The notes: generated by a model from the sequence alone, not told the origin. A stretch of 64,000 bases of DNA from Raillietiella orientalis (GCA_036172245.1 JAYWIR010000003.1:6076001-6140000), one strand, 5' to 3'. Counted from the stretch's first letter, positions 7,022 through 64,000 are shown. Numbers and translations are program-made.

Positions 7022-7044
7022 AAGTGCATAGGATACCATGCTGG

Positions 7045-7050
7045 AATAAA
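7045..7050 (+). promoter_or_regulatory. Candidate polyadenylation signal of IDI1
   Basis: AATAAA starting 24 nt after the IDI1 stop codon. A second AATAAA lies near 7175. Confidence 0.45.
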
Positions 7051-12219: not shown

Positions 12220-14425
<2,206 letters not shown>

Positions 14426-14559
14426 AGTGAGCATAGTTAACAGATATCAAATCCCTCCAAGATCTAGACTATGAATTCGTTATAAAATCTATTTTAATTC
14501 AGAACAGCTTGAGGAGCAAGGAGATGACTATTTAATTCATTTCCCATTATTATGCAAAG

Positions 14560-14581
14560 TTTTTTTTTTTTTTTTTTTTTT
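14560..14581 (+). repeat. Poly(T) tract in the probable SMU1 3' UTR
   Basis: Run of more than 20 T residues. Confidence 0.8.
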
Positions 14582-18397: not shown

Positions 18398-18438
18398 GTG
18401 AAAAATTCATGTGGTTGCTAGCCACATGAATTTTTCAC
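18398..18438. repeat. Perfect 17-bp inverted repeat (hairpin) with a 7-nt spacer
   Basis: gtgaaaaattcatgtgg (18398-18414), spacer ttgctag, then ccacatgaatttttcac (18422-18438), the exact reverse complement. Confidence 0.92.
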
Positions 18439-21400: not shown

Positions 21401-21674
21401 TTTATTTTGGGAAATTAGGTTGCAAACAAAGAAATAGGATCTAGATCCAAAAACACACCTAATACTGTAAGGTAACCTGTTAGCATCTACGTATAATAAT
21501 TTCTTGAATAATTTTATACACATCAAGTTATTATAACTTTAATTCGAAATATCAATGAATATTGATTTTTTTCCAGAATATTAATCTTATGTAAAATTAT
21601 TAAATTTGTGATATGCAATTCAATCAATTGTACAAAGACTTTAGTATATGGGATAGTAAAGGGTAAAATTTGCA

Positions 21675-39600: not shown

Positions 39601-42600
39601 TTTCTTGAACAAGAAAAAAGGAAACAACAGCAAGCTCTCATAGAATCTTCACCAGTTTTGCTATCGGATGTTGAATTTGAGAAATTGAAAGCCGATATTT
39701 TGAATGTTCCTTTGACCGAGGGGAGACCTGTTATTCAGCCTACGTATACTCAAGTTTCTGACTGGCAAAAAACTGAAACTCAATCTTCTCAGCCACCAAA
39801 AGATAGTAGTTTCCATTCCGGTAAACATTATATTTTATGACTGCCATCAGTTTCCAGTTTGTTTTCAGCCTTATTGCAAGCACCATGCCCCCCTTTACCA
39901 ATCTGTACATTTTCGGCTCCTCCTCTTCCACCTGAAAATCCTGTTACCGAACAAGATCGGCAGCTTCAGCAACAGTATGAGAAGTGGCTAGGACAGTATC
40001 TCCAGAAACTTCATTCTCAACAGAAGTTCTTTGAAACGGAAGTTGGTAAACTTCGCAAACAGCGAAAGGTGTTGTAAAATTTGTAACCATTGATTATTTG
40101 TGGTTGTTAGTCCTTGACTAGTCGTCAGCGTCAGCTGCGCAAAAATGGTCAAGAGTTGAATGATGGTGATCAGCTGGAGCTGAGTCGGATCACTAGTGAG
40201 CAGCAAGGGCTGCAGAAACAACTCGAGCAGATCCGCAAGCAGGTTCGCCAGCATTCTATGCTCATCCAAGATTACAATAATAAGAGGCAGATAGCGTCAT
40301 CAGTTGGGGGGATGGTTAAGCCTCCTACTCCTGGAACAAGACCTTCTTCTTCTCCTCTTCATAGACCCAGTACCCCGATGTCTACACCACATTCACCACT
40401 TTTGTCACCATCCTCAATGCCTAGTCCTATGACACCATCTCAGCAACAATCTCCCAGTCCCTTACTGTCTCCTCATTCTGTTGCTATGACTCCTTCCCCC
40501 CGTATGCATGGCCCTTCAACTCAGGTAATGAATCTTGCATTGGTTATGTAGTGTATTCTCATGTGTTTCATAGGGAGATTCAGCATATCATGTTGGCACA
40601 CGTTATTCAGTGTTATCAGATGAAATACCTTATGTGATGGCAGCGCAACGTATGTATGGTGGTGACCAAGCTCCTCGAATGGTTCGATCGGACACGCCAG
40701 CGAGGTAACTTTTTCAGCACATGTTTGCCGTTTTCACCATATTTCCTAGAGCTCCTATGCACCCAGCTCAAGGACATCACTACCAGCGGCCTCCAGAACT
40801 GGTTAGGCCCCGCCTTCAGTATTCTCCAGCAACTACAAATTATCAATACTCAAATGCTCAGAATCAGCAGCTTCTCTCACCACATAGCCCCTACTCACCA
40901 TTATCTCCACAACTGCGATCTCCTCAAGGGACAAAAATTAATCTTATTAATATGGGAAATTTAATTCATCAGCCATCACCACATACTTCCCAGTACAGTC
41001 CACAGGGACCATCTGAGTCACAATGTGTTGTAAGTCCCGGATCCCTTCCAAACATCAGTGGACCTCCAAAAGTCATCACTTCCGGTATCCATATGCGACG
41101 CTCTTCGGGTGGCATGAGTGTTGTTGGATCACCTATAAACAGTGAATTTGAAAAGCCCCAAAGTGTGGACACATCTCTGTCTCTAATGCAGCCTTCATCA
41201 TCTCCCAGTAGGGTTTCCACTCTTAGTGACTCAGCATCTTTGACCCCACTTTCTGATACGAGAACTTCTGGGAATCAGGGAATTAGTTTTACTCCTTTAT
41301 CAGCAGTATTTAATAATCCTCAAAATCCAATGGGCAGAGGAGGCGGTGGTTCCAACAGCAGCATGTTGCCCTTCTCTCAAATCGATATTCTGGCAGTATT
41401 CAAAACTGGATTGAAAGGAGGGAATCCGATGTATGCAGGAGATTCCTCCAATAAAGCTGAAGGACAGTCTGGTAGCAATGCAGAAAGCTTACCATCTTCA
41501 TCATATCAGGCAGCTTTGCTCCAGCCTCCAGTTAAAGGAGAACTGCCATCAGTGAAATTAAATGTGATTCCTGTTACAAGTACTAAAGTAACTACTTCCA
41601 AGTTTCTTTATAAGAACTCAGGTGACTCAGATGCTTTTGTTTTTCCCAGTTCACATGGAAGGGAATCAGTTCAGACTAGTACGAGTGGAATGGAGCTGTC
41701 TTATGCAAAAGAATCACTTGTTACTGAGCACATGAAATCTAATGAGTCTCAGTTGTTTCAGTTGTTAGCATCTGAACTGTTGCAGAAACCAGAAACTGCT
41801 CCTGCTAAAGTAGGAACTAAAATCGAAGAATCAGGAAACGTGCTTTTAAAGCAGTTGTTGGAACATGCTTCTTCGAGTTCTGGCCAGCTCACAACCACCA
41901 TGTCTTCCACGTTGTCGAGTAAAGCATCACAAGTTCCTCAGCCCCCAATGCCATGCCTTGCCACCACAGGCATTTCACCCGTAGCGTCCAAAATTCAACC
42001 AGTTCCCAGTTTGCCTTCTAACCAAGCTCCTTCCTTACTCCAAAATACTTTAAGCCCTGCAGTTGTTGCTAATGCTCAGATGGAAAGTGAAAGCATATCA
42101 GAAAAACAGTCTTTGCAGACCGTACCAGGCTCCAAGACCACCAGCGGTATTTTTTTCCAAGAAAGCAAACTGCAAGAGTCGAATCAAATGGTTCGGTCAC
42201 AGGAAGTTACAGTGCCTTTGCATAACGAAACCTTAATGGAGCAAAAGCTACTCTTTTCTAAAAAGGAGATAACTGATTTGCTAGGATCCCCGTCTGATTT
42301 TAACAGTCTTGAAGCAGGTTTGTGGTCAGTCATGTATTTTCCTAAAGAAAGTTTTATGCAGAGCGTAAGCGGCAGAAGGAATTGGAAATCCGTCGGGCGA
42401 AACGTCGCCTGTATCAACAGAAGCGAAGACAAATTCGCCAAGTTAATAAGGATGCAGGCGTTCCTGCTAATCTAGTACCAAAAAAAAAGCCTCGTAAAGT
42501 TCCCAAAGAAGAAGACTATGATGCCTATATTGCCAGCATGATGAGCCAGTTGCGATCTCTTCCATCCTTGAAGATCTGCGAGCCGTCGTTGAAGCCGAAT

Positions 42601-45600
42601 ATGAATGTGTGCGTGGTGTTTGGCAGCGATGACCTATCCGATGTCACGAGTCCGGAATTTAATTTCACACGTGGCAAACTTTTGGGGACTTTTGGCAATT
42701 TCTTTTTAGCAGATAAAGGAGATTGTTATAACAATCCTCCGTACGGAGATGTGCCTTTCTCCACCCCCACTCCTCAGCCTGCTTCGCATCCAAGAGGCTT
42801 TTATAGTCAAGAATTTTCCCCCCTGCCCAGGGTCGGACAAGGTAAGGATTTTCCCACGTAAACTCACATCGCTTTCGCGTATTTCCAGAAGCATCCTTGG
42901 AGAGAAAAGACACCGATACCCCCGATACGATCGTCAGCATGTCATCTCCGGAGTGCGTTGGAACCGAAACAAATTCTTGCTACAAAGGTCAGGAATCATT
43001 TCAGTCATCGTCGGTTAGCTCTTGCCTTCAGGTCTTCGGTTGATTCGTGACGACAGTGAAGATGAACGATCAGCAGGTTCGCGGCTGTGTTCGAGTCCGG
43101 TAGTGCCATTGCTTGCTCCTGTGCCAGTGCGCATTAAGGGCTGCCTTCCCATTCCGAAATCGGAAGAACAGGTATGATAGCGCAGCGTGCCTAAGATGGG
43201 GAGGAACACGTCAAAACGAATTCTGGGTTTCAGAATAAAGAAAATCTGGGAGCAGGAATTTACATGAACAGAAAGGCGAAGCCTATCAACCAGTCTCCGC
43301 TCGTCCCTTTGAAGGATTCTGGGAATATAGCAGTTACCCTCACTCTGACGTCGCAAGCTGCGGAGGACATGATGGGGGTGCTGACAAGATTGGCTAGTGT
43401 TCTCAAAGTAACACCCCCCGCGAGCTACAAAGTCATCGAGCGCACGTCGACTCCTCCTAGTCAGAAGCTGGGATTGTACCGCCAGCTGGAGGGGAAAGAC
43501 ACCGGTTAGCCGGATTGTACCTTTTAGATCGCGCCACTCGTTTTTTTACCTACCTGTTCCTAGATTTGCAGAGCATCCTCAAAGGGCCAGCGCGGTATTG
43601 CCGTCACTGCGACATGCTGGTTCTTGCGACGGGCATAACGAAGAAGGCGTCGGAGCTTCCCTTTCTCGACGTGAAGCTCGTGGACGAACACGAACTGCCA
43701 TTTTGCAGCCATCACTGTTACCTGCAGTTTGCTCTCACTCATCGTTCAGTGATCGAGGAGAAGGTGGTGGGATGCTATGCGCTCTGATGTTTTCACAGCC
43801 CGTTTGCGATCCTTAGGAAGCAGCAGCCGTAATAGAACATGTTAGTGATATCTTCCGTTCGATCCGGCCGAAACTCAAACGCGAAATAAAAGCCCCCGCG
43901 GAAGGAGTCAAATCCGAACCCGTAGAATCACCGACGGCCAAAGTTCCTCGGCCAGCCGCCTACCGGTTTTGGAACAAGAGCATTCTTCCCGCAAAGAAGT
44001 ACAGACGCCCGACGGAAAACGAGATGACGGATATGCTGTATCGCATGGCGATCTGCCTGACCCCAGCCCGCGCGAGCACCGACACGCGCCAGTGCCTCTT
44101 CTGCGGGGTCCAAGGAGATGGTGTGACGGATGGGCCCGCCAGGTCTGTACGCCGTTTCCAAGGCTTCCTAGTTCATTTCCCTCCAGGCTGCTCAACTATG
44201 ATGTGGACAAGTGGGTGCATCTGAACTGTGTTCTTTGGGCCGAGGATGTGTACGAAACCACAAACGGGGCCTTAGTGAACGTGGAGGTGGCCCTGCGAAA
44301 AAGTGTTCAGCTGACGTGCGTCATATGTGAACGTACAGGTGCAGCAGTGCGGTGCTTCAAGCTGCGTTGCTCGAATGCATATCATTTGAATTGTGCAATC
44401 AAAGGAGGATGTGTGTTTTACAGAAACAAATCAGTGTACTGTCCCCAACACGCGCTCAAGGGGGAGAAAGAGAACGAACTGAACACGTTGGCAGTTTTCC
44501 GCCGCGTCTACGTCGAAAGAGACGAAGCGCGCCAATTAGCAGCTCTTATGCGGCACCATCATGCAGACCAAAGTCGCTTGCTGCGCGTAGGAAGCCTCGT
44601 GTTCTTATCGGCAGGACGTTTGCTTCCCCACCAGTTGTTGGCTTTCCACACCCCGGATCACATTTACCCCATCGGTTACCGAACACTCCGCATGTTCTGG
44701 AGCATGCGGCAACTCAATAAACGCTGCCAGTACGAATGCTCCATCGTGGACGCGCAAGGACGACCAGAGTTCCGTATCCTGGTGCGCGAGCCCCCCCACG
44801 AAGATGTCGTGATCGTGGGATCGACGCCGGGCAATGCTTGGCGGCAGATTCTCGAACCGATAGAACAGCTCCGAAGGAACGCGCAGATGGTGCGCATGTT
44901 TCCCAAGCACTTAAGAGGTGAACAACTTTTCGGTCTTACTGAACCATATGTTGTCCGTATTCTTGAAAGTCTTCCCGGTGTAGATTCTTTGCCGGATTAT
45001 AGATTTCTGTATGGACGCAATCCCCTGTTAGAACCTCCTCCAGCTGCCAATCCCTCTGGCTGCGCTCGTGCGGAATCGAAATTACGCAATACCCATTTCA
45101 AGCGACCACTAACATGCCAGCGAAGTTCTAGTGTGAGTGGACTAGTCCCCTTTGGCCGTCCATCTCTTTCGCTTCCCTTTTGGGAGTGGAACAGCGGGAC
45201 TTACGGAAAGCAACTAGTCACATCGAAGTCTTCTCAGTACAAGAAAATGAGACAGGAATGGCGGCACAACGTGTACTTGGCCCGATCGAAAATCCAAGGC
45301 TTGGGTCTGTACGCGGCCCGTGACCTCGAGCGCCACACGATGGTCATCGAATACATCGGCGAAACGATACGTTCCGAAGTGGCCGAACTCAGGGAGAAGC
45401 GTTACGAGGCACAGGTGAGGATATGCCGCCGCCTTTCCCTCAGCAGCCCTCCTCTCAACGTGTTTCGAATCAGAACCGTGGCGTTTACATGTTTCGCCTG
45501 GACGACGACCGCGTCATCGACGCGACGCAGTGCGGAGGATTGGCGCGGTACATCAACCACTCTTGCAGCCCCAACTGCGTGACGGAGACCGTGGAAGTGG

Positions 45601-45802
45601 ATCGCGATCTGAAGATCATCATCTTCGCGAAGCGCCGCATCTCGCGTGGTGAGGAGGTAGGAACGTGTGGGCCTGGGAGCTGACGTCACTGATGCCTGTT
45701 CAATTCAAGCTTTCTTATGATTATAAATTTGACATCGAGGATGACCAACATAAAATACCGTGCCTTTGTGGTGCACCGAATTGTCGAAAGTGGATGAATT
45801 GA
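21675..45802 (+). CDS. KMT2C: Histone H3K4 methyltransferase KMT2C/D (MLL3/4; trithorax-related with the Lpt-like N-terminal half); multi-exon gene
   Basis: Exons join in phase from 21675-22134, 25560-25746 and 25983-26204 into [22 protein letters not shown] (26688). These are followed by a PHD finger cluster, an HMG box, PPPPY and LxxLL motifs ([13 protein letters not shown]), a second ePHD, FYRN/FYRC, the Win motif GCARAE, SET (LARYINHSC) and post-SET ([13 protein letters not shown], stop 45800-45802). The start codon and the low-complexity middle exons are less certain than the domain exons. KMT2C versus KMT2D is not resolvable for an invertebrate single ortholog. Confidence 0.93.
26688..29400 (+). 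other. KMT2C/D N-terminal ePHD + PHD finger cluster (Lpt-like region)
   Basis: [123 protein letters not shown] and [12 protein letters not shown]. Confidence 0.93.
30946..31226 (+). other. KMT2C/D HMG box
   Basis: [69 protein letters not shown], across a 43-nt intron (31059-31101). Confidence 0.88.
44081..45802 (+). other. KMT2C/D C-terminal ePHD-FYRN-FYRC-Win-SET-postSET module. Exons: ...-44142, 44187-45414, 45474-45656, 45710-45802
   Basis: [102 protein letters not shown]. Confidence 0.96.
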
Positions 45803-45984
45803 CACTGGTGCAATACTATTTGTTGATGGCCATTTTATATTCTTGTTTCAGAATTTATGTCTAGTTTTTACAAATGATGTTTGAGATAAATCCAAAGATT
45901 TATTCTGAGCACGCTTTCTTCGCGCATATATTTATTTCTACTAAAAAAGAAAGTTATATTTGAAGAGCCTGACATTATTCCTTT

Positions 45985-46007
45985 CTCTCTCTCTCTCTCT
46001 CTCTCTC
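45985..46007. repeat. (CT)11 microsatellite at the AT-to-GC step
   Basis: A run of CT units separating the AT-rich KMT2C 3' flank from the GC-rich region. Confidence 0.9.
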
Positions 46008-49000
46008 CTGCGGGATTTTCGGTCCTGTTGGGGAGAGAGGGGAGCGAACTTCAGCCACCACGTGCTTGTCTCCTCGGGGGCTAGCTGTGTGTGCTCTCCC
46101 TGTGATGCTCGGGGCAGGCGGCAGCGTGACCCGGTCTTCCCGTGACCCGGTCGGAAGCGAGGATGGCAACGTGTGGACAGAGTCCAAGCGAGCGTGGACT
46201 CGGAAGAGGAGCACGAGTCTCCGAACCTCCCGGTTGCGTTGCCGAGAGCAACCAGGGGCAGGGCGGCATCCCCGTAGATTCCCTCGTCGTTTCCATGTGT
46301 CTTGGCGCCATGCACCGGAAACATCGATTGCGAAAGCTTGGGGACCGGGGAAGCTGGAAGCTGACGTTCACCCCCTCTCCCGGAAACAGATCCCTCTCGT
46401 GTTTTCTTTTTCTTGTGCCCTTTCCGGCGTAGTGTTCCATGCCGGTGTGCGACCCGGTGCCATCGCTGTTACGATGGTTGCCGGCTGACCTGTGCATTTC
46501 CACCGGGTTCTTTAGTGCCTTAGGCGTCGTCGTGTTTGTCCCCCGAGTGTGCCTTCCCACAACTGTTTCCCCCGAGTCGTGGGATGAATGTGAGGAACGG
46601 ATGATTCGATCGCCGTTTCTCTCGGCAGGTAAATTTGGATGCGTCACGGCGCGCCTCATTTTCCACACACACCGCATTTTGTCTCTGTGTCCCGAAAAGG
46701 CCAGAGGTCAGGTCAGTTGCGGATGGATCCGCTTCCTGTAACACCCTCACAATGCGGCCCTTGTCGTGGAAGGGGTGGGCTGCTTTGCGTTGCTGCTTGG
46801 CTCGCATGCGCACTGGACGTACGCTCAGAAGCCGTGATTTCTGTAAGGGAATCCGCATCTTGACGCCTTGACGTAAAGGTCATTTTGACATTCAAAAAGC
46901 ATCCATGCTGCTGCAGACCTGCATGTCGTGGGGAATGACGGCAGTAACGGCCGTCCACCTCCAAAAGTATTCTCCATGCCCTGGGCCTTCGGTGGTGCAT
47001 ACCGACAGTGTTGCGCATGGTAGGTTGACGTGGCAGCCATCACTCGGGCCGCGCTGACGTGTTGATCTTCCGAGGGAAGAAGATCGTGGGGGCGTTCTGT
47101 CCACATGAAGCGTGTGCTCGCATGAATGACGAAGTGCTTCCGACGTGTCTCCTGCGGAGGGTTCCATCCCATCTGCCTGCTCTTAGCTGTGTCATTTGGG
47201 AGAGTGGCTGTTCATTACGTCGCCGATCACTGTGCGTGCTCGACGTCGGCGGATCGCGCGTGGGGCTCCACCCAGGCGTTGCTGGCGTTGGTACTCACAG
47301 GGTTGCTGGCGACGTGGTTTCCTCCACCCTTCTTCAGAGTTGCACGTGTGGGTGGTGGGGGGTCGAGAATCCGATCCACACCACTCGTTGCGTGCGCTCC
47401 AACCGGTGTTTACCATCTCCGGTCCACGCGACCTGCGGAGCTGCTGCGAGTTTGAAGCGGTAGCAAGTTTCGTTCGATTGGTCCTTGGAAGCTGGTTCGT
47501 CTCAGTTCCGGATCAGCATGCTGAGTTGCGCGCGTCTTTCGGCTGCTCCGGTGCCCCGTTCTTAAATTCCACCTCCACTTTCTACCCAAAAAGCCAAAAA
47601 CAAAACCCAATTGCAGAAAAGGCCCCTTGACCGTGGATTAACAAGCACTTCACTACTCAACCTGCATGATCACAGGTTGCAGCTCAAACAAATGACACAC
47701 CGTAGAACGACGGAAGACAAAGATCTTCCTCCTGATGGTGGCAGCAAATTCGTGCGAGGATACGCAGGAGAGTACAGTACGTTTCTGATTCTGGCTACTT
47801 GTCTGACAAAAATGTATTCCTCCATGCATCGAAAACATGCTTTCGCCTTCTCCCACATCCGCTTGAACTGGAACCAAAATAAAACCCCCGCTGTTCTTGT
47901 GTTTGTCAACAGAATTGGGGGGGGGGGAACGTGAAAGTTCAGCTTTGAGGTGCACCCCAGGCGCAAGATGGGGAGGAAATTTATTCTACTGCATCCTTTT
48001 CAGCCTCCCTGACTCCTGGCATCCTTCGTCACTCCGGACTCGGTTTTTTTGGAATTCTTCGTGCACGTGGTTCCGGATTTGTTTGCTTTGTCGTTCAAAG
48101 GACGCTTCGATCTGGCACGGAGGAAAGGATGCCCGGACGTCACTCGAGTTGCTTCCAGGTCAGAGGCGCCGGCGCTCGAAATGGCACCTGAGAAGGAATC
48201 TGTTGGAGCTGCTTCGGAGTTCGCTGAAGAAGGGAAAAGAAGGCGCGCGTAGTCCGCTGGTCGACGCGCTTGGGCGGGGCTGTTCGCGAAGCTGCGCTTA
48301 CCATGAGAAAACTGGAAGCAGCTGGGGAAGAGGCGCAGGGCTAGAAACTAGGAGGCGGGATGTGGGTGCCACCATGAAAGCAGTTGTCCGAAGACGTAGC
48401 TTCTTGCTGAAAGGTGCCCTTTCCCGCAGCCCCAGGATCACCGTGGCTGCGTCTCACGCAGCAGCATCGAGGGAATTTGGAAGTCACTGCGGTTGGAAGT
48501 TTCGACTCTGCGACCTTTCCCCGTTTGTTTTGCCCACGAGGGGTAGCTGGAATTCTCCCTACGAAGATCAAGTTGCATCGGGACGACCTTGCATGGGAAT
48601 TGATGCGTGACTGATGAAAGCAGCTTGAAAGGGTTCCATTTTTTGTTTCCGTGTTTTTTTTTTTTCTTCTTCTTTTTATTCCTCATAGACCGGAGGCGCT
48701 CGCCTTTCTTGCATTTATTCGTTTTGCAAGAACCTTTCGCCATCCTGGCTTTCCGCTTGCGGGAGCCGTTTTCCAGTATCCTATCTGCCTCGCCTGTTTC
48801 CCCATGTCGCGTATTCGTGGGCGATGGGGGAGACATCAACTCAGCCGCTCCTCAGCCTTGTTGTTTTTTTGTTCAGGCTCTCTTCCTCCTCCCTTGCCTT
48901 CTGAAGGCGACGGTTCTTGCCATGGCTTGCCGATCTTTGCTTGGGTCTCCACGCAGCTCCTCGCGTCCAAGGGATGGACTGCTCCCCACCTTTCTCCTTC

Positions 49001-54745: not shown

Positions 54746-57700
54746 CTGGGCGGTGACCGGAAAGAGGCGGTCCGGCCGAGAGGAGCGCCCAGGAGCGCGT
54801 GCGCGAGAGCGAACGCAGGAAGAAACTCCCGGAGGCGGTGCCCTCCCACCTTCGCCACCGCGACCACCGTCTGGGGTGCGCGCTCGGTCGCTCCTGGTTC
54901 CCGGAGGAGCTTGTTTCCATGTGACCCGAAAGGTCGGTCATGGGCACGCTCGCCAACGGAAGGGGAGGGAGGGAGGGTTTTTTCTGCCCGCCTCCTTCTC
55001 GCCCAGGGTCCCGCCCACCTTCCTCCTGGGTACGGACCATCCCGATCTACCAGTGGGGCACCAGCACGGACTGGCTTCTCCGTCTTGCTCCTCCTCCGGA
55101 AAAAGCAGAGAGGGGCGGGGGGGGGGGGGAAGGAGCGTGAGAGGGCGATCCCCGCTCGGCGCGTTGCGCAGCGCACCATTCGTCCCCCCCCCTTGTCAGC
55201 AAAGGGAATGGAGAGCGGGTCCGCGCGCGCCCCGTGCACCCGCACAGGCGAGTTCGCCGACGCAGTCGCCGCGAGGCGCTCTCCGCGTGCGCCCGGCAGC
55301 GCGTGCGGACGCGAGCGCGACGGCGTCTCCGCGGGGGCTCTCTCTCGCGGCTCCCCTCCCTCCCCCCTTCCCGTGCAGTCCGCGCATGCGCCTCGACAGT
55401 CCCTCGGAAACCGAAAGAAAGGCGCCCTCCCTCGAGTGGCAGCATCCTCTCTGCGACCCGAACGGCGCGGACCCCGGGGACGGGCCTCCGGGGTCCGCGC
55501 CGCAAGGGGCGGGCGTGTGCGCGGCGGGAACGGAGCCGTGGCCCGCGCTCCAAGACGGGGCCTTCCCTCCTGCCATTAGGGCTGAACGGTAGGGGGCCCG
55601 TCGTGCGGCTCCGCCACTCTTCTTCTGCCGTCCCTTGGTCCTTCAGGCGCCAAGGCCACGCCCGTCGCGGGCAGAGAGTTTTGAGCTCGGAAGGCCTGCA
55701 CTTTCCTCGCTTACGGGAGGCTTCGGGCTCCTGGACGGTTTCCAGAATGAATCACGCGTTCCGCTTGCGGGGAGATTGCTTCGCTCACGTAACCAAGGCA
55801 GCCACGGCCACGGAACAAAGGCAAGGGAGGGCAGAAACCCGAATGGGTCTGAGCGTGTTCGCCTCACGCGCGGTGTCGTACACTTACGAAAACGCGTTGC
55901 GGCATTCGCTGCGATTCGGCTCATGCAATCGGCAGGGCTGCCTTGAAAGGCGGCTGTTGCACGATCGCGAGCAGCCTACTGGGAAGAGACTTTTGTGATG
56001 CAGAGGGAGGCAGCGTGCAGGAAACTGCTGGTGTGACGCGAACTGCCCCGGAGGAAGGGCCCCGGCTCAGACGGACACCCTGAGACGGGCATCCGCTGAG
56101 ACGCGAGAGTCTGCCGCCGCGCTGTGACGAAGAGAATTTGGCAGCGCGGATCCCGGGGCGAGAACCGAATTCTGCGGGGGAGCTCCGGAGCGTCGTCGTC
56201 CTTAGCAACGCGCTGCGTTCCCTCGTGTCCGGGGGAAGTTGTCGGGCGCGCGCACGCACCGCGAGCCGCCGCGGCCGGGTGGGCGCTTCTCTCTCTCCGG
56301 CAGGGGGGCATCGGCGCTGCGCTGGGCGAGGTCCGCAGTCCCTCCCTTTCCGCACAGAGCAGCCGGGTCACACCTGACGGCGACTTCCTCTTTGCGGCAA
56401 AGGAGCTTTTTATGGACGCGGGGCCTCTTTTTCTGGCGAAAAAAATCATTTTGGAGTGTTTCCGCGGAGTGGACTTCGTCCCACTTTCTCCGCACTCGTT
56501 TTCGGCTCGCGTGTCGGGTTGCGGGGGCGGAGGCACGTATCTCTGGAAACGAACCCGAGGGGGAGACTCCCGGAACCATCCACCCGACACGGGGCTGTGC
56601 CATGAGCAGGCGAAGGGAGCGAACCGGAGAGGCCGCGGTCTCCTGCCCTTCGGAGATGCATCGGCGCCCTAAGGTCGGGAAATCCGGGTCTTGGCGAAGG
56701 AGACGGCTGGGGCGAGGGGGGAATCCACCTGGGTACTGGGGTCGGGCAAGAGAAGGCGGGAAAACGGTCTAGGACACAGACCAACGGGTCTTCTTGGCGT
56801 GGTTGGTCCGTCGGCCGAGACCGCCGCGGCCAACTTGCCGGAGGGGACGCGGGGTGGCTGAAGTGGGGGTGGTGGCAGCTTCACGCTCTGCCGCTCCTGG
56901 CTTTCCTTGCCGCGGAGCTGCCAGGGCGGAGGAACTCCCGGAAAGCAGCCACATAACGGAAGAGACTGTGGGAAAATCCGGCCACTTTCCCTTGGTGCGC
57001 GACGGGAGGTGGGCAGCACGCCCGTGTGGGGACATCCGGCCGAAGACACCCGAAGTGTCGCATGGAGACGGCGATACGCTCGAAGGCCGCAGCGGATCAG
57101 GGCTGGGTGGGCGGCGGTGGCCTCCTCGATGTCCTGCGCCCCACTTGGACACGAGGGGGGATGACGCCATCGCAGAGCGGATGGCATCCGTCCCGGAGTG
57201 ATTTGGTGGAGCGAAAAAGGGAACGGGACGACGGCAAGGGGAGGGAGGAAACATTCACCCTTTCGGGAAAGCCAGTGCCGGTGGACGCCGCGCGGGCGGA
57301 CAGTGGCCTTCCCCTCGCTTCGCCCTTCACTCCCTTTTCGAGGAGGACTGCGCCTTCCGGGAGACGCAGGGAAGGAGGGAGACCCGCTCTCGACGAGACC
57401 CACGGGCGCATCTGCCCCGTTTGGCGGCGCGCAGGGACGCGCATCCCGCGGACGCGCCGCACGACGGCCGAGCGAGCGACCTCGCCCGTGGGAAGTGCCT
57501 CCGGGATGGAGCGGCTCCTAAAGAGGCAGCGCCGTTATGCTGCTGGGGCGAAAAGGGAGTTTCCCCTAGACGCTGGGAGGAGGGGCGGGCGTCCCTTTCC
57601 TTCGCCGGTCACCGGCGGCTGCGAGGGCGTTCCCGGGGCGTTCCCCCGTCCGGTGTGGCGCCGCCTCTCCCCCCCTCCGCTCCCTAGCGGGACAAAAGGG

Positions 57701-60700
57701 AGCCGGGAATAAGCGGGAGTAGAGCCGTCCGGAACAGCGTGGCGTTCCCCCCTTCCTTTCCCTTCCTGCCGCGGGACCGAGTCCTCTTGCACCTCGCGAG
57801 CGGCAGCCGCCCACTTTCATGCTTGGGTCTCCATGGTAAACGCAAGGCGCTTATCGGCTGCATTAAAATCTCATTTTCTGTTTTGGTCCATGGACAAGAA
57901 GGTGGAGAACATTCCTCCGTCTCCCCTCCCCCTCCCTCCCTCTCTCCCCATGCGCCCGCCGCCACTCCCCTCCTCCTTTTCCGAAAAAAAAAAAAAAGTT
58001 GAGAAATCTCTTGCGCAAGGTTCTCCCGGGTGACCAATCGCCCTGAAGGCAGCGCCACCTACCGGCACACGAAGGAAATCTCCCCCCTCCCAAATCGCAG
58101 AGTTCGCCGCTCGGAAATTCCTGGCCGCGGGAGCGCCTGGGGAAAGGCGCTCCCGCTGCTTCCCATCCGGAGACCTACCCCACCCTCCCGGACCGGAGGT
58201 TCAGCAGGGAGGTGCCTCCATCGGGGATGACGGCGCCCTGCTGCTGCAGGCGAGGGCCGGTTGCCCTCTCGATCGGTCGGGGAGCCTCTTCGCGACGGCG
58301 TTCCGCCGGCAGCGTTCACGGAGCGGCCATCTTTGGGAGGGGAAGGAAGCATCAAACGGAGGACATCTTTTGGGAGCTGTCCCAAGGAAGGACGTCCTAG
58401 GGTGGCGACGAGGAGCGCACTTTCTCTCCCCCGCAGATCCCCTCCTCATAACCGCTCCTCCCTTCCGAACTCTCCTCGGAGGCTTTCGCATCCCGAGCTT
58501 CCGCGCCACGTGGTCCAGGCGATTATTTCCTACGCCACCTCAGTGGCTTCTGGGGGGAGGGAGAGGGAAGAGTGGGCTGCGAGGTTCTTCCTACAGCCAC
58601 CTCCCTCCCTCTCCCCCTGAGCTTCCAGCGGGGCGGAGGCGCGTTGCTCGGCGCGAATTCTCGGAAGGCGCTCTTTCTGTCTGCCTGCTCCTTGGGGCCA
58701 GGGAGGTTCCGGACGGAGGATGGAATATGCTGGCAAGGTGGACCAATGCGCGCAGTCCTCGAGGAGGAGGAAAGGAGGGAAGGAAGGGGGAGGAGGAAGA
58801 TGGGAAGGTGGACGCAAAAAGAATCCCCCAGCCTTCCCGGAAGGGCGCCTGACATCCGTCCACGCTCGTCTGAAATGATGAGCCTCCCACGCTTCAGAGG
58901 AGGGAAAGCAGGATCGCAATGAGGGGTGGAAGTGCTGCTAAGGGAGGGAGGGGGTGTCAACCCTGGAAATGATGTAGCCGTTCGGCGGTGGCACTCTCAG
59001 CCTTCTCGGGCGGCGTCGAGCGCTGCCGAAGCTCTCTGGTGCACCCCCACACCCTACCCCTTGTCCTCAGCCCACTGCCTGCCGGTGGCGAGCGCTCCAC
59101 GCCATCGAGGAGGAGAGGAACTGAGGAAGCAGCGAGGGACCGAGGGGAGCTGATTCCCCCCTTCCTACTCACCCCTCCAGTCGGAGTTTCGCAGGGGATG
59201 GGGACGTCGGTCCTGAAGTTCGGAGGTCAAATTTCCCCTCAAAATCTCTGCTGCTCCCTTTCCCCTCCTCGCCACGCACGCAGAGAGAGCCGATGGGCGC
59301 GCCATGCGTCCGCATCTACCGCACGCGGTACAAGGCCGGTAGGAGCCTGGGGTGAGGCGTGGGGAGCGCTGCACCGAGGTCGATTTCCGGAGGAGGCGGG
59401 CTGTCCCTTCCCTCTGTAAGGGTTTCCTTATGGCGGCGGGGTTCCCTCGGGGCGCAGCGGGCCACTTGAACGACGGGCGGCGCGCGCGCCGTTTTTGTTA
59501 ACCTACCGGCCGTGGAAAGGCGCGGCAGCGCAACCGCAGCGCTCCAGCGAGATTTGCTCGTGCAGGGAGAGAGAGGGGCAATCGGGAGACGAGGTCTCCT
59601 CCTCCTCCTCTTCCCCTCGCCTTCTCGCTCTCCCTGTCTCTCTCCTGCGTGTGCGCGCGTGCGCAAGGAGGGAGGAGTTCGCTGTCGGCAGCTCGCTCGG
59701 GAAGGAGTCGCGCCCGCATGGCGGCAGCGTCGGCGGTGCCATCAGGGCTAATTGGTTGTTTCGTGGGTTCCCCCTCTCACGGGAACGATCTGCAGCGCCC
59801 GCCGACCAGAGGCGAGAGAAGACGGCAGTCGCTTGGAGGCATTTTGCTGGTGGGAACAAGTCGGCGGCGGTGGGTCCCCCGAGCGGACGGCCGCAGTTTC
59901 CCTTGGAGACGGGCCCCGCGGGCTGCGTCCGCCGTCGCCGCAGCGAGGGGAAGCGCCGCCGCGCAACGCTGCGCCGTTGCCGCTCCTTCCGCAGGAAGGC
60001 CGAGGCCTTCCTGCGTCACCGTCCGGAGGAGCCGAAAGGAGCTGTCGGGCGAAGTCTCGCGGACCCGGGGCAGGGACGGGAGGGTGGGAAGAGGAAACGG
60101 GGGGAGGATGTGAGCAGCGGGATTCGGACGGATGAACCGTAAGGAGGGCGCGAGAGATGGCAGGGAGCCATCTGCCTGCTCTTCGGTCGCGTCTCTAAGG
60201 AAGGAGAGACCAGCAGACAGAAGGAGGGAGGGAGGACTCGCCCCGCCCCGTCGGAGACGGAGGTGTCCCTGTTCCCGGTCAGGATCTCGGGTGGACGCCT
60301 CCGCGCCCGCCTCCTCGGGGCGGATCGGCACGCTCGAGAGGACATCGGGGTGGGAGTTTCCCTCTGCTGCTCTTCGCCTTTTCCCTCGGAAGATGCCGAT
60401 TCTTCGGGATGGGATCCTGGAAAAGCGCCTTCGGGTGCCAATGCCCACGGTCCGCTCCCGAGAGAGGTGGTCGCCACGGATAACACCATGAGGCGGGCTC
60501 AGCGGCACCTCCCCGCACTGCCGGACACGCCGGAAGATTTCGGGAGCGCCGGCGAACGTCCACGGTTCTCCCCGGGACCTCGGCGGGAGTCCCGCCAGAA
60601 CGGGAGGAGAAGGAGGGAAAAGATGGAGAAGGGAACCCACTGCCCGGAGCGCCCGACGATCGCACCGTCCTTTGCGCCTCCTCTCCGACTTCCCGTGGGA

Positions 60701-63700
60701 CGTCCCGGACGCGCCGCCCTTCTCCTAGATCAGGAGGAATTGCGAGCGAGGTGGAGGGGACTCGGGACATTCCTCCCGAGGTGCTCTTGCCATGCCTCCT
60801 CCCGTCTCGGGAGGGAAGCGACTTTCCTCAGGGAGTCTCTGCAGGACGAACAGGTGCGCGTGCGACCGGGAAGGGATCTTTGATAGGCGAGGCGTCCGGG
60901 ACCGCCCACGCTCGGCGCGCAGGACTGGGTCAGGCCACAACAAGAGGAAAATCCTCCCAGTCCTCTGTCTCCTCCATGACTGTTGGTCGTCGGGGGAGAG
61001 GCCAGAGGCGACGGCCTCCAACGACCTGCGCCAACGAGGTGTGAGAAGGAGACAACGCCAGCTTTGTTCCCGAGGAACCCTTCGCGAGCGAGCTGCTACC
61101 GTCCTTCCTGGAAGGCTCGCGGCGGAAGCTGGCGTGTCGCGGGACGCAGCCTCCCTCCGAGTCGCTGCTTCTCGCCTTTCTGGTCTCCATTCCCTCTCCC
61201 GGGTTCTCGCAAGCCCGAGGGAGAAGCCGACGCCGGTTGCCGGGTGACCCTTGGTACGACGCAGCCGGGATTCTTCCCGGATGACTTTCTCTCCTTCGAG
61301 GAGGGAGGAGAAGCTTGAAGGGACTGATGTCACCCACCCGGGGAGAGGCGTACTGCAGGAGCCTTAAGCGGGAGCGTGGGGCTCCTGGCGCGCTTCCCTC
61401 GACCCCTCTTCCCACAAGGGAGTTGGGATGGTGGGAGGATCTCCTGGACTGACTCTCTTCGGTTCAGAGGGGAAGGAAGAAAGGAAAAGGAGGAGGAAGA
61501 GAGGGGGAGCGTGTCCACCCCTTCGGAAGTGACGGACGGTCACCTCTCCTCTCCCCTTCCCGGCTTCCCGTCTCGGCGCGTGCGGACGCGCCGGGATGCG
61601 GACGTCGCGCCAAACCGCCCTCCGGGATCTTCGTCGCAGCCCTGGCGGAGGGATGAGAGGAAGAGAAAGAGAAAAACGAGGCAGGGGGAGGAGGACTGTT
61701 CCAGCACCGGCAGTCTGTGGCTTCCGGGAAAGCTCCGCGACCTCGGCGGGAGAACGGGCGAGGGAGGAGTGCCGGAGACCGGATGGGAGTCCCGAGTCTC
61801 CCGAGTAGGTCGCCCCCCTTCTCTTCCGTTAGCAAGCGCGGAGGGAACGGACACGCGGCAGGGTCGTCGCCCAGCAACGGGAGCGCACCCGACCCCCGGT
61901 TTCCAGCACGGCAGGGTCGTTCCTGATCTGGGAGGGGGAGAGATCGAGAGGGGAAGAGCAGGCAGCCGTTGGCGCGCGGTCTTGAGGGCGCGGATGCCAG
62001 GCGCGAGGCGGCGGAGGTGGAAGCAAAGATGAAATTGGGCGTCTTCCCCCCCCCTCCCTCAGCAGCGACTCGCGTCTGGACCTGCTCGAGACTCCCACGG
62101 CGGAGTTGTTCCGTCACGCAGTCTCTCGGAGGAGGCCTTCAACATCCACCTGAAAAGGTCGGCCCCCGGCACACGCGCGCGCTGGCGCGTGCCGCGGGCG
62201 AACCGGCAGCCGTGCCGGCCGGCGTCGTACAATCCCTGCCGGGCGCTCGACGGTGCCTCGGCGGTCCCTCGCGGGAGCGCGTGGCAGGCAGGCAGGCTCC
62301 TCGCTTTTCCCTTGAGCGGCTCCGGGGTGTGGCACAGAGGCGGCGGCGGCGGAAACCTCAGGCATTTTCCTGCTTATTCATGGAGGGTATCCGCCAGGAC
62401 CGAATTCGTGGCTCTGGCACGGCAGCTTAGCAACCGCGCCCAGAACGAGCTCGTTCCTCTCGCTGCTTGCACGAAGGCCGCACTGATTCGGACGTCTGCC
62501 CGGTCGTGATCGGCGGCACTCGAGAGGCGGCTGGAAAAGCGGCTCCCTCGCCTCGCTCCTCCCCCGCAAAATCCGCCTGTCCAGACAAACAAACAAACGG
62601 AGGGGGGAGGTCGCAAAACAAACAGACGAAAAGATGGCGCGCGCGGTTCGTGAAGCAGCTGCGGAGCCACCGCCGTCAAGTGGGCACTGTCCCCTACCAC
62701 GCGGCGGCGATGACGAGGGGACCTGGTCCCACCCGCGAGACCCGACGATGCTTTGCCGCTGTTCGGGAAGGACACGGCGCTGCCCCGGACACCGCTGAGC
62801 AGGACGATCCCTGATCCCGGTGCGTTCGGCGTCCTACCGGACGGGACATCCTGGGGGTTGTCCCTTGGAGCAAAAGCGCTAACAGCCCAAATAGCCGGGG
62901 AGATAAGAGGAGGAACTCGTCCCCCAGATGGTCACGTCAGCTGATCAGCACCCTCCATCCTTTCGAAAGGAGATCGCCGTGACCGGCTGCCACCTACGCT
63001 CCAGAAATTTTCCCGGGAAAAGGGCAAACGCAAGGGTTGGCAGGGAGGACAGTCCGCACGGTGCTAAGGTCGGAGGTCAACGGTTGGAAACCTCGACCGC
63101 CGCACCGCGCCGTTGACAGTCCTTCAGCGCCGCAGCTTCCGCTGACAGCACCTCTTTGCTCGGGGGGCGGACCCGCGCTTGCAGAGCCTGCGAAATCCCC
63201 GCGGCTGCTCTGGACGTCGTCGGGCGCTCCGGGCTTCTTCGCCGGCAGCTAGCGGGCGTGTGGCCGGGGAAAAAAAATCTCGCTGGGGATTTTTCCTCCT
63301 CGGACCCTGGGGGTCTCGAAGGAGGCGCGCAGGCTCCGAGGGCGGCAAGTGAGCGCGGCTCCTTTATCCCCCTCGCGCTGCCACCGCCGCCACCGGGACC
63401 TGCGGCGCTCTCCTGGACTCTCACGAGTCGACGTCACGGCCTGGCGGTTCCCAATGGAGTTATCCGAAGGCACTCTTTGTGGTGGGGTGCGGAGAGGCGC
63501 CACCCGGCGGACCGCCGGAGAGGAGGCGCAAAAGTAGCAGAGTGAAGCGATATGGTCATCTGATCTCGGGAGGAAACAAAAGCAGCGGGAGCTGCCTAGG
63601 GAGATGGTTAATGGTGCGGAACGCGTGCGAGTTCCTCTGGGCAAGGCGAGTGAGCACGCGTCCTGAGCGACCGGCCTCCTCGGGTCGGTTGTCCCGCTTG

Positions 63701-64000
63701 CCTGTGGACGGGCGGGAAAATTCCGTCCCCGGCGCAGCCGCTGCTGCTCCGGGGACGGCCGACTGCGTGGCACGGCACACTGCCGAGGGCGTCGCTGGCC
63801 CCAAGGAAAAAGGGGGGTCCCTTTCGACTCCCGGCGCCCTGGGAAAAAAACGTTCGCAGCCAAAGTTTCATTTTCGCGGAGCTTCCCTCCGGTCCGAGGA
63901 CCCCCCTCTATCTGTGCCCGCCTTCCCCGCGAGGACCCCCGCGCGGGAACGGCAGAAGCGCGCGCCGAGCGCTCGGCAGCGCCTCGCGGAAAATTCGAGG

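What the first reader, a model, noticed from the sequence alone, without database searches (positions are those of the whole stretch)
42300..64000. Isochore-like AT-to-GC compartment switch that cuts through a single gene
Seen in sequence: sampled 60-nt non-coding lines are 25-30% GC in the AT-rich part (lines 23401 and 45841) and 62-82% GC after 46 kb (lines 52981 and 52141). The rise begins inside KMT2C/D (~42.3 kb), whose exons stay in phase across it, and by eye it affects introns, third codon positions and intergenic DNA alike. Inference: a genuine two-compartment genome, driven by GC-biased gene conversion or by regional mutation/methylation differences. Housekeeping genes sit in the AT/methylated compartment and a cell-surface gene sits in the GC/unmethylated compartment. 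A step this large over a few kb looks unusual for an arthropod-like genome.
Basis: partly seen in the sequence, partly recalled or inferred. Interest (0 to 1): 0.75.

Follow-up and report, generated by a model that had tools for sequence, protein, structure and literature searches.

The report
Sharp AT-to-GC switch in arthropod DNA
Within about ten kilobases this insect- or crustacean-like genome climbs from one-third to two-thirds G+C, starting inside one gene and reshaping the protein of the next; this looks real, and is an extreme example of a pattern already known from honeybees and birds.

Summary
GC is 0.333 (sd 0.037 per kb) over 1-40 kb, 0.515 over 40.1-50.1 kb and 0.674 (sd 0.027) over 50.1-64 kb. 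CpG o/e rises from 0.35-0.55 to about 0.9-1.2 at 42.0-42.5 kb, inside KMT2C/D. The rise is a 10-kb staircase affecting fourfold sites, introns and intergenic DNA. It is interrupted by an AT-rich island of about 275 bp (KMT2C last exon plus 3'UTR). The GC-rich part is not bacterial. It carries a spliced minus-strand SEA/transmembrane gene (four modelled GT-AG introns of 59-65 nt) belonging to an insect-wide mucin-like family. The SEA protein is 38.8% Gly/Ala/Arg/Pro against at most 24.9% in 118 orthologs, so the GC pressure is old and biological. Best reading: a genuine compositional-domain boundary made by a long-term AT-to-GC fixation bias, most likely GC-biased gene conversion, next to a germline-methylation boundary. 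The driver is inferred, not shown. No reads, genome, polymorphism or close relative were available. This is a known kind (honeybee, birds) of unusual magnitude. A mis-join at the (TC)n tract near 46.0 kb remains possible but unlikely.

The parts
1..40100 (.). AT-rich, CpG-depleted domain (GC 0.333)
   Evidence: Noncoding stretches have GC 0.29-0.34 and CpG o/e 0.38-0.79.
6146..7018 (+). Isopentenyl-diphosphate isomerase (IDI1, NUDIX fold), single open frame; GC3 0.32, CpG o/e 0.26
   Evidence: Pfam NUDIX E 9.7e-12. Homologs are named IDI1. Composition.
12597..14087 (+). SMU1-like gene exons (LisH plus WD40); GC3 0.28-0.40, CpG o/e 0.16-0.57
Evidence: Pfam LisH_TPL and WD40 hits; composition.
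27141..45803 (+). KMT2C/D (MLL3/4, trr-type) gene, domain-bearing part: PHD clusters, HMG, FYRN, FYRC, SET, post-SET; stop at 45801-45803
   Evidence: Pfam hits; collinear tblastn to homologs; sequence read.
40100..50100 (.). Transition zone, GC 0.515
   Evidence: Best two-change-point segmentation and 250-bp profile.
42000..42500 (.). CpG o/e switch (0.35 to 0.75 to 0.93) inside a KMT2C exon
43034..45657 (+). GC- and CpG-enriched 3' exons of KMT2C (GC3 0.45-0.82, GC4 0.52-0.75, CpG o/e 0.73-1.52), with 51-68 nt introns at GC 0.46-0.56
45709..45984 (+). AT-rich island: KMT2C last exon (GC3 10 of 30) plus 3'UTR (GC 0.293)
   Evidence: GC3 of the preceding SET exon is 49 of 60; Fisher p 1.2e-5.
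45984..46007 (.). (TC)n microsatellite exactly at the AT-island / GC-rich border; the only candidate mis-join site
   Evidence: Sequence read.
50100..64000 (.). GC-rich, CpG-replete plateau (GC 0.675, peak 0.735 at 52-53 kb) running off the window
   Evidence: 54.3-64 kb has GC 0.663 and CpG o/e 0.98, with no recognisable gene.
51001..52141 (-). SEA domain, stalk, transmembrane helix and cytoplasmic tail of a mucin-like gene. Modelled exons: 52141-52001, 51939-51872, 51812-51649, 51583-51447, 51386-51001. Introns 59-65 nt, GT-AG, GC 0.65-0.75. CDS GC1/2/3 0.73/0.54/0.87.
   Evidence: The last intron (51446-51387) is in frame and optional.
52377..54218 (-). Open frame of 614 aa, Ser/Thr/Pro/Glu-rich: probable mucin-like upstream exon(s) of the SEA gene (unverified)
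   Evidence: Weak codon periodicity at 52.47-52.74 and 53.10-53.43 kb. No similarity to orthologs' N-terminal parts.

Best explanation
This is a genuine boundary between two compositional domains of one pancrustacean (insect- or crustacean-like) genome. To the right of about 42 kb, a long-acting, strand-symmetric bias that favours fixation of G/C over A/T has raised GC at all classes of sites. It reaches about 0.66 in unique noncoding DNA and 0.83-0.87 at synonymous sites, and it has pushed the encoded protein toward Gly/Ala/Arg/Pro. The most likely driver is GC-biased gene conversion in a region of high recombination. The domain also lacks the CpG decay that marks germline-methylated gene bodies on the left, so a methylation boundary coincides with it, but loss of methylation alone does not explain the GC level. 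Shown: the composition, its reach across site classes, the gene content, the protein remodelling. Inferred: the fixation bias, its link to recombination, and the methylation states (from CpG o/e only).
For: (1) All site classes move together. KMT2C GC4 is 0.14-0.24 at 27-36 kb, 0.25-0.35 at 38-42.5 kb and 0.52-0.75 at 43-45.66 kb. Spearman rho of GC3 against position is 0.85, p 2e-6, over 20 coding segments. Introns are 0.31 on the left, 0.46-0.56 in the ramp and 0.65-0.75 in the SEA gene. Intergenic DNA goes 0.32 to 0.556 to 0.663. (2) GC1, GC2 and GC3 are about equal in the many open frames of the plateau, there is no codon periodicity outside the SEA gene, and skews are near zero. So this is neither codon selection nor bacterial DNA. 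(3) The ramp runs through uninterrupted exons of one collinear gene and includes a 10-kb intermediate zone, unlike a join of two foreign pieces. (4) Both sides have the same gene architecture: GT-AG introns of 51-68 nt in KMT2C and 59-65 nt in the SEA gene. Both genes are of arthropod type. (5) Protein remodelling: SEA product GARP 0.388 and FYMINK 0.116, against ortholog means of 0.177 (max 0.249) and 0.294 (min 0.205), n = 118 of 203. The KMT2C ramp exon has GARP 0.279 against a mean of 0.236, and 12 of 86 homologs are as high. At conserved columns, FYMINK-to-GARP versus the reverse is 15:0 in SEA, 6:1 in KMT2C and 3:5 in the AT-side control IDI; Fisher p 0.0017 for SEA against IDI. (6) Methylation is not sufficient. 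Left intergenic DNA with CpG o/e 0.76-0.79 is still 0.32-0.34 GC, and the AT island has CpG o/e 0.77 at GC 0.29. (7) The bias needed is modest. With GC* = 1/(1+lambda*exp(-B)) (formula quoted in PMC4406589) and the left side taken as B = 0, B of 1.3-1.8 gives 0.66-0.72 GC. Honeybee estimates average 5.7 (PMC4406589, passages read). (8) Five KMT2C loci of other animals in metagenomes are compositionally flat, apart from a final partial bin in L001, so the ramp belongs to this neighbourhood, not to the gene.
Against: No recombination map, polymorphism, methylation data, reads or whole genome could be consulted, so the driver is inferred by analogy. On the broader polarity measure (replacements toward amino acids with GC-richer codons) the SEA gene is no more biased than the AT-side control: 35 up / 18 down against 29 / 16, Fisher p 1.0; with a looser consensus, 87 / 27, p 0.17. 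KMT2C 6:1 against control 3:5 is not significant (p 0.12). The AT-rich island has borders sharper than about 50 bp (GC3 49/60 against 10/30 across a 51-nt intron). That is awkward for a regional process acting through conversion tracts and is unexplained. No repeat family is shared between the two sides that would tie them to one genome. The GC-rich DNA begins exactly at a (TC)n tract, a classic place for a mis-join. One window says nothing about genome-wide structure.
Confidence: 0.6

Rival explanations
1. The boundary is genuine, but the cause is a regional difference in mutation, not in fixation. For example, an unmethylated, early-replicating or differently repaired domain in which the AT-ward mutation pressure is absent or reversed, with no role for gene conversion.
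For: CpG o/e switches at the same place as neutral-site GC starts to rise (42.0-42.5 kb), and TpG/CpA excess falls from 1.2-1.27 to 0.81-0.97. The composition is strand-symmetric and equal across site classes, which a mutational cause predicts as well as gBGC does. No test here separates the two.
Against: DNA on the left with only mild CpG loss (o/e 0.76-0.79) is still 0.32-0.34 GC, and the AT island is CpG-replete but 0.29 GC, so methylation status alone does not set GC. In the insects studied, mutation is AT-biased and GC-rich regions are attributed to gBGC (PMC4406589 passages; PMC10978632 abstract and section 8).
Confidence: 0.2
2. Assembly chimera: DNA right of the (TC)n tract near 46.0 kb (or right of about 50.1 kb) comes from another locus of the same genome, or from another arthropod in the sample, and was joined by mistake.
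For: The GC-rich DNA starts exactly at a microsatellite. No repeat is shared across the join. No reads could be laid: none was listed and no genome is held.
Against: GC3, GC4, intron GC and CpG o/e are already high in KMT2C's own exons 43.0-45.66 kb, left of the suspected join, within a collinear gene that then returns to AT-rich in its last exon. The 46-50.1 kb stretch has the same intermediate GC (0.556) as those exons, not the plateau value. Intron size and splice sites match on both sides. The SEA gene is of insect type, as expected for a pancrustacean. A join to another locus of the same genome would still leave the GC-rich domain real.
Confidence: 0.08
3. Selection keeps the domain GC- and CpG-rich, for instance as a very large unmethylated regulatory island around a tissue-specific gene, or through codon or mRNA-structure preferences.
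For: The GC peak (0.735) lies on the SEA gene. CpG is fully retained.
Against: About 10 kb with no recognisable gene is as GC-rich as the gene (0.663). Introns are 0.65-0.75 GC. The protein is driven far outside its family's composition range, which looks like a cost and not an adaptation.
Confidence: 0.07
4. Foreign DNA: a bacterial, viral or transposon-derived insertion of high GC.
For: High GC and many long open frames.
Against: Open frames occur in all six phases with GC1 about equal to GC2 and GC3. 193 of 193 open frames of 70 aa or more right of 45.6 kb gave no Pfam family, except KMT2C's SET domain and one weak zinc-finger match at E 0.006. There are no Rfam families, no tandem or dispersed repeats beyond low-complexity motifs, and the one clear gene is spliced and of insect type.
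Confidence: 0.02

Closest known systems
Honeybee (Apis mellifera) GC heterogeneity driven by GC-biased gene conversion
   Same: An AT-rich insect genome (0.34 GC) with GC-rich regions. GC correlates with crossover rate in coding, intronic and intergenic DNA; gBGC is strongest where GC is highest; CpG-creating changes are favoured (PMC4406589, passages read). [quoted passage not shown]
   Different: The highest GC class discussed in the passages I read is above 0.55. Here unique noncoding DNA sits at 0.66 and peaks at 0.735 per kb, reached within 10 kb. The organism is not shown to be a hymenopteran; its genes are about equally distant from all sequenced insect orders. No recombination data exist here.
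Low-CpG (methylated, housekeeping) versus high-CpG (unmethylated, tissue-specific) gene classes of insects
   Same: IDI1, SMU1 and most of KMT2C have CpG o/e 0.13-0.58, and the SEA cell-surface-type gene has 0.94. [quoted passage not shown]
   Different: Here the CpG boundary cuts through one gene, mid-exon at 42.0-42.5 kb, and is coupled to a doubling of GC. Methylation itself was not measured.
Hyper-GC regions of bird genomes with 'hidden' genes and accelerated protein evolution
   Same: Very GC-rich regions whose genes have altered codon usage and fast-evolving proteins and are hard to find (PMC8449477, abstract read). Here the SEA product is 30-35% identical to all orthologs, while the Cotesia query is 36-49% identical to members from other insect orders. 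Pfam's SEA model fails on the window's frames.
   Different: Vertebrate, on microchromosome or megabase scale, and linked to sequencing dropout. Nothing is known here about scale or about sequencing difficulty.
Vertebrate isochores
   Same: Compositionally homogeneous domains (sd 0.027-0.037 per kb) with GC3, intron and intergenic GC covarying.
   Different: Isochores are defined over hundreds of kilobases (PMC2651174, abstract seen in search listing). Only 14 kb of the GC-rich domain is visible here, and the fine structure (a roughly 275-bp AT island) is much finer-grained than an isochore.
Feather-louse gene GC spread
   Same: Insects with GC-poor genomes in which gene GC ranges from 19.6% to 73.3%, with a long GC-rich tail in GC3 (PMC11163934, abstract and section 15 read). 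This shows that insect genes at about 70% GC are on record.
   Different: That study measured assembled coding sequences only, with no genomic context, noncoding DNA or boundaries. No evidence links this window to lice.

Membership tests
Isochore (long homogeneous compositional domain) | Length of hundreds of kilobases | not testable with these tools
   The GC-rich domain runs off the window after 14 kb, and no genome is held.
Isochore (long homogeneous compositional domain) | Internal homogeneity relative to the difference between domains | tested here: met
   sd 0.037 (left) and 0.027 (right) per kb against a difference of 0.34, but a roughly 275-bp AT island and a 10-kb intermediate zone exist.
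gBGC-driven GC-rich region | GC raised at all site classes, including introns, intergenic DNA and fourfold sites, and strand-symmetric | tested here: met
gBGC-driven GC-rich region | Excess of AT-to-GC over GC-to-AT substitutions relative to outgroups | tested here: inconclusive
   Amino-acid proxy only. FYMINK-to-GARP 15:0 in SEA against 3:5 in the control (p 0.0017), but codon-GC direction 35/18 against 29/16 (p 1.0). No relative closer than 58-64% protein identity was found.
gBGC-driven GC-rich region | High local recombination; AT-to-GC alleles skewed to high frequency | not testable with these tools
   No runs listed; no population data.
Gene-body methylation CpG bimodality (invertebrate type) | CpG depletion with TpG/CpA excess confined to some transcription units | tested here: met
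   CpG o/e is 0.13-0.58 in IDI1, SMU1 and KMT2C exons and 0.38-0.64 in KMT2C introns, against 0.64-0.79 in left intergenic DNA and 0.83-0.98 on the right. TpG/CpA is 1.2-1.27 on the left and 0.81-0.97 on the plateau.
Gene-body methylation CpG bimodality (invertebrate type) | Direct evidence of 5-methylcytosine in the germline | not testable with these tools
   No methylation data.
SEA domain (Pfam PF01390) membrane mucin-like proteins | Match to the Pfam SEA model | tested here: not met
   No hit at E <= 0.01 on the unspliced frame 51443-52468(-) nor at E <= 1 on single exons. The spliced product could not be handed to the tool.
SEA domain (Pfam PF01390) membrane mucin-like proteins | Homology to proteins that carry a Pfam SEA domain, over that domain | tested here: met
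   100 homologs at E <= 1e-3. 12 of the 12 scanned have Pfam SEA where they match. The spliced model aligns over residues 5-272 at E about 1e-43, and 203 of 203 family members were hit.
SEA domain (Pfam PF01390) membrane mucin-like proteins | G/SVVV-type cleavage motif, and a transmembrane helix after the domain | tested here: inconclusive
   A GSVLV motif opens exon C, and a hydrophobic stretch of about 23 residues followed by basic residues lies in exon D. The motif definition is recalled, no transmembrane predictor was run, and cleavage is untested.
KMT2C/D (MLL3/4, trr) histone H3K4 methyltransferase | PHD clusters, HMG box, FYRN, FYRC, SET and post-SET in one collinear gene | tested here: met
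   Pfam hits (the HMG match is weak, E 0.003). Collinear alignment to homologs. A Cys-rich post-SET ending was read. Best homologs are named KMT2C/MLL3/trr.

The most novel reading that the evidence does not exclude
This poorly sampled pancrustacean lineage may carry bird-like hyper-GC, CpG-replete, gene-bearing compartments (noncoding DNA at two-thirds GC or more) embedded in a one-third-GC genome. They would have kilobase-sharp borders that can cut through genes, made by gene-conversion bias at least as effective as in honeybee. Proteins encoded there would be driven so far toward Gly/Ala/Arg/Pro (here twice the family norm) that standard domain models miss them. A class of genes would then be systematically under-assembled and under-annotated in such arthropods.
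Probability: 0.3. Interest if true: 0.65.

Novelty: new member of a known kind. Interest (0 to 1): 0.4.

Why it matters
If the boundary is confirmed by reads, it gives a compact natural experiment. One gene (KMT2C) has its 5' three-quarters in AT-rich, CpG-poor DNA and its 3' exons in GC- and CpG-rich DNA. Next to it is a gene whose protein has been pushed to 39% Gly/Ala/Arg/Pro. That allows direct tests of how far non-adaptive base-composition pressure can override protein and codon constraints in an arthropod. It also allows tests of whether methylation boundaries and recombination landscapes coincide. Practically, it warns that genes in such domains can escape domain-model annotation: Pfam SEA failed here although homology is clear. 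Composition-based contaminant filters could also wrongly discard such regions.

Tried and rejected
- Whole genome: none is held.
- Public sequencing runs for 41-51 kb: none was listed, and no RNA holder was listed, so read laying could not be used.
- Earlier findings of this scan: nothing by place, words or sequence.
- The listing of cluster members: switched off.
- Metagenome relatives of the KMT2C exon: six loci, best 58% identity. None is close enough to replicate the junction or to polarise DNA substitutions.
- IDI1 homologs are taxonomically uninformative: a flat 47-50% identity to animals, plants and fungi.
- Shared dispersed repeats across the boundary: only low-complexity motifs.
- Tandem repeats in 38-64 kb: one 39-bp array.
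- Rfam families: none.
- Insect-type telomere motif (recalled): none.
- Pfam on all 193 open frames of 70 aa or more right of 45.6 kb: only KMT2C's SET domain and one weak zinc-finger hit. Eleven of these frames were missed at first and scanned only.
- A 4x3 nucleotide-by-phase chi-square scan was too insensitive to see even the SEA exons. The simpler phase-GC scan found the SEA gene and three weak further stretches: 22 windows against 3 of 597 in a shuffle.
- Orthologs' N-terminal mucin parts find nothing in the window, so the 5' extent of the SEA gene is unknown.
- The careful maximum-likelihood tree did not finish; the quick tree is reported.
- Literature searches found no paper describing a boundary of this magnitude in an arthropod. 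They cover only the held open-access library, and the organism is unknown, so I make no claim that it is unpublished.
- Bacterial or viral origin and codon-usage selection were considered and rejected (see rival explanations).

Full report
OBSERVATION. The window holds no N.
- GC per kilobase is 0.27-0.40 over 1-40 kb (mean 0.333, sd 0.037), 0.44-0.58 over 40-50 kb, and 0.635-0.735 over 50-64 kb (mean 0.674, sd 0.027).
- The best two-change-point model puts the steps at 40.1 and 50.1 kb (GC 0.333 / 0.515 / 0.675). It improves the log-likelihood by 2617 units over uniformity.
- CpG o/e is 0.25-0.9 on the left, lowest in gene bodies, and about 0.9-1.1 from 42 kb on. In 500-bp steps the switch falls at 42.0-42.5 kb.
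It is a 10-kb staircase, not a step of a few kilobases.

GENE MAP, all on the + strand on the left.
- An intronless isopentenyl-diphosphate isomerase lies at 6146-7018 (Pfam NUDIX; homologs named IDI1).
- A KMT2C/D gene has PHD clusters at 27.1-29.5 kb, a weak HMG match at 31.0-31.3 kb, and FYRN, FYRC and SET at 43.8-45.7 kb.
- Homologs align collinearly over 43034-45799 in seven exons separated by introns of about 50-110 nt. The gene ends with a Cys-rich post-SET exon and a stop at 45801-45803.

WHICH SITES CHANGE. All of them.
- Along KMT2C, GC at fourfold sites is 0.14-0.24 at 27-36 kb, 0.25-0.35 at 38-42.5 kb and 0.52-0.75 at 43-45.66 kb.
- GC3 rises with position: Spearman rho 0.85, p 2e-6, over 20 coding segments. 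It climbs even within the single open exon 40709-42472.
- Total GC steps up earlier (40.1 kb) than GC3 does (about 41.6-43 kb). Part of the first step therefore reflects the change from intron-rich to exon-dense sequence.
- Introns go from about 0.31 GC (31-38 kb) to 0.46-0.56 (43-45.7 kb) to 0.65-0.75 (SEA gene). Intergenic DNA goes from 0.32-0.34 to 0.556 (46-50.1 kb) to 0.663 (54.3-64 kb).
- GC and AT skews stay small.

A WRINKLE.
- The rise is not monotonic. KMT2C's penultimate (SET) exon has GC3 49 of 60 and CpG o/e 1.5. After a 51-nt intron, the last exon has GC3 10 of 30 (Fisher p 1.2e-5). The 3'UTR is 0.293 GC.
- A (TC)n tract at 45984-46007 follows this AT island of about 275 bp, and GC-rich DNA follows that.
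- Thus GC-enriched exons are flanked on both sides by AT-rich parts of the same gene. That rules out a join inside 42-45.7 kb. It also shows borders sharper than I can explain.

WHAT IS IN THE GC-RICH PART.
- Open frames abound in all six phases with GC1, GC2 and GC3 about equal.
- None of the 193 frames of 70 aa or more right of 45.6 kb matches a Pfam family, apart from KMT2C's SET and one weak zinc-finger hit.
- There are no Rfam families, no tandem repeats of note, and no dispersed repeats beyond pyrimidine-rich low-complexity motifs.
- Codon-like periodicity appears essentially only at 51.2-52.2 kb, with weaker signals at 52.5-53.4 and 54.8-55.0 kb: 22 windows against 3 of 597 after shuffling.
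- There the minus strand reads as a spliced gene: a SEA-like module in three exons, a short stalk, a hydrophobic helix, and a charged tail ending at 51001. The four introns are 59-65 nt, GT-AG, and themselves 0.65-0.75 GC.
- Pfam does not call SEA on the unspliced frame or on single exons. An exhaustive HMMER search finds 100 homologs at E <= 1e-3 (34 at <= 1e-10). All 12 of the 12 I scanned carry Pfam SEA where they match.
- The family is insect-wide: Hymenoptera, Coleoptera, Hemiptera, Lepidoptera, Diptera and Neuroptera, 1000-1500 aa, variously auto-named mucin-5AC and the like (atlas).
- The spliced model aligns over residues 5-272, across every exon junction and into the tail, to the C-termini of these proteins at E about 1e-43. 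All 203 of 203 sequences in hand were hit, with a flat 30-35% identity to all orders.
- The upstream 614-aa frame (52377-54218, minus) is rich in Ser/Thr/Pro/Glu, as expected for the mucin-like ectodomain, but shows no detectable similarity to orthologs.
- 54.3-64 kb holds no recognisable gene.

ARTEFACT OR BIOLOGY. Reads could not be consulted (none was listed) and no genome is held. The case rests on internal evidence.
- (i) Neutral-site GC and CpG o/e are already high inside KMT2C, left of the only plausible join, the (TC)n tract.
- (ii) 46-50.1 kb has the same intermediate GC as those exons, so composition changes by degrees.
- (iii) Intron length and splice sites match on both sides.
- (iv) A quick maximum-likelihood tree places KMT2C's C-terminal exon in a fully supported clade of insects plus a copepod (SH-aLRT 100, 11 rows; position within it unresolved; the careful search did not finish). 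The SEA gene belongs to an insect family.
- (v) Over aligned regions the SEA product is 38.8% Gly/Ala/Arg/Pro and 11.6% Phe/Tyr/Met/Ile/Asn/Lys. Its 118 orthologs with long alignments (of 203) average 17.7% (max 24.9%) and 29.4% (min 20.5%). The KMT2C ramp exon is mildly shifted: 27.9% against 23.6%, with 12 of 86 homologs as high. Such remodelling takes long evolutionary time in GC-rich DNA and cannot be made by an assembler.
- I put a mis-join at about 8%. A join to another locus of the same genome would still leave the GC-rich domain real.

POLARITY. No relative closer than 58-64% protein identity was found, so DNA-level polarity could not be measured. I used orthologs' consensus as a stand-in for the ancestral residue.
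- Replacements from FYMINK to GARP versus the reverse are 15:0 in SEA, 6:1 in the KMT2C ramp exon and 3:5 in the AT-side control IDI. SEA against IDI gives p 0.0017; KMT2C against IDI gives p 0.12.
- A broader measure, replacement toward amino acids with GC-richer first and second codon positions, does not separate SEA (35/18) from the control (29/16; p 1.0). With a looser consensus it is 87/27, p 0.17.
- The test is therefore suggestive, not decisive. Only 70 of the 98-118 eligible homologs per gene were aligned.

MECHANISM.
- Equal enrichment of introns, intergenic DNA and synonymous sites, strand symmetry, and a protein pushed outside its family's range all point to a non-adaptive regional bias, not to selection.
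- Methylation differences, inferred only from CpG o/e and TpG/CpA excess, coincide with the boundary but are not sufficient. Left intergenic DNA with CpG o/e 0.76-0.79 is still 0.32-0.34 GC, and the AT island is CpG-replete at 0.29 GC.
- By analogy with honeybee, I favour GC-biased gene conversion in a high-recombination region. In honeybee, GC correlates with crossover rate in coding, intronic and intergenic DNA, and the fixation bias is strongest in the most GC-rich class (PMC4406589, passages read). In other insects GC3 rises toward chromosome ends (PMC10978632, abstract and section 8 read).
- With the equilibrium formula quoted in PMC4406589 and the left side taken as the unbiased equilibrium, B of only 1.3-1.8 would give 0.66-0.72 GC.
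- A purely mutational regional cause cannot be separated from this with the data in hand.
- Five KMT2C loci from other animals are compositionally flat, apart from a final partial bin in L001. So the ramp is a property of this genomic neighbourhood.

COMPARISON AND NOVELTY.
- The kind is known: honeybee GC heterogeneity with differential codon and amino-acid usage, low-CpG housekeeping versus high-CpG tissue-specific genes (PMC2975444, passages read), hyper-GC bird regions with hidden, fast-evolving genes (PMC8449477, abstract read), and feather-louse genes spanning 19.6-73.3% GC (PMC11163934, abstract and section 15 read).
- What stands out is the magnitude and sharpness: unique noncoding DNA at two-thirds GC reached within 10 kb, a boundary cutting through one gene, and a twofold shift in a protein's composition. 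The lineage also has no close sequenced relative.
- My three literature searches turned up no description of such a boundary in an arthropod.

LIMITS.
- There is one window and one gene on the GC-rich side.
- There are no reads, methylation, expression, polymorphism or recombination data.
- The extent of the GC-rich domain is unknown.
- The AT island's sharp borders are unexplained.

Noticed in passing
window 45709-45984: An AT-rich island of about 275 bp (KMT2C last exon, GC3 10/30, plus 3'UTR, GC 0.29) sits between GC-rich DNA on both sides. Its borders are sharper than about 50 bp, and CpG is not depleted in it (o/e 0.77). No explanation so far; constraint on the 3' end, or a gap between two conversion hotspots, are guesses.
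   Followed up: partly
window 45984-46007: A (TC)n microsatellite of about 12 units lies exactly where the AT island gives way to GC-rich DNA. It is the one place where an assembler could have mis-joined.
   Followed up: partly
window 151-600: Strong three-base periodicity (phase GC 0.66/0.38/0.35; chi-square 49.5) at the left edge of the window suggests another coding exon. Frames 257-685(+) and 146-448(-) gave no Pfam hit.
   Followed up: no
window 27141-45803: KMT2C/D appears unsplit here: the N-terminal PHD clusters and HMG box and the C-terminal FYR/SET part lie on one strand in one collinear locus. From memory, Drosophila has them as two genes (Lpt/cmi and trr). The exon chain between 31 and 43 kb was not fully modelled.
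   Followed up: no
window 48986-59644: Nine loosely similar pyrimidine-rich 31-mers (C/T runs of the CCCTCCCTCTCTCCC type, 65-84% alike) are scattered only through the GC-rich part. They are possibly just low-complexity composition.
   Followed up: no
window 48633-49312: Long T and A homopolymer runs (12-18 nt) in inverted arrangement lie inside the intermediate-GC zone, flanking about 600 bp. Their meaning is unknown.
   Followed up: no
window 54300-64000: Nearly 10 kb of unique DNA at 0.663 GC and CpG o/e 0.98 has no recognisable gene, repeat or RNA family, in a locus where genes otherwise lie every few kilobases. It may hold genes too remodelled or lineage-specific to recognise, or 5' exons and introns of the SEA gene.
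   Followed up: partly
window 6146-7018: The IDI1 homolog is a single uninterrupted frame, and its best identities are a flat 47-50% to animals, plants and fungi alike. This points to a long-branched or poorly sampled lineage.
   Followed up: partly
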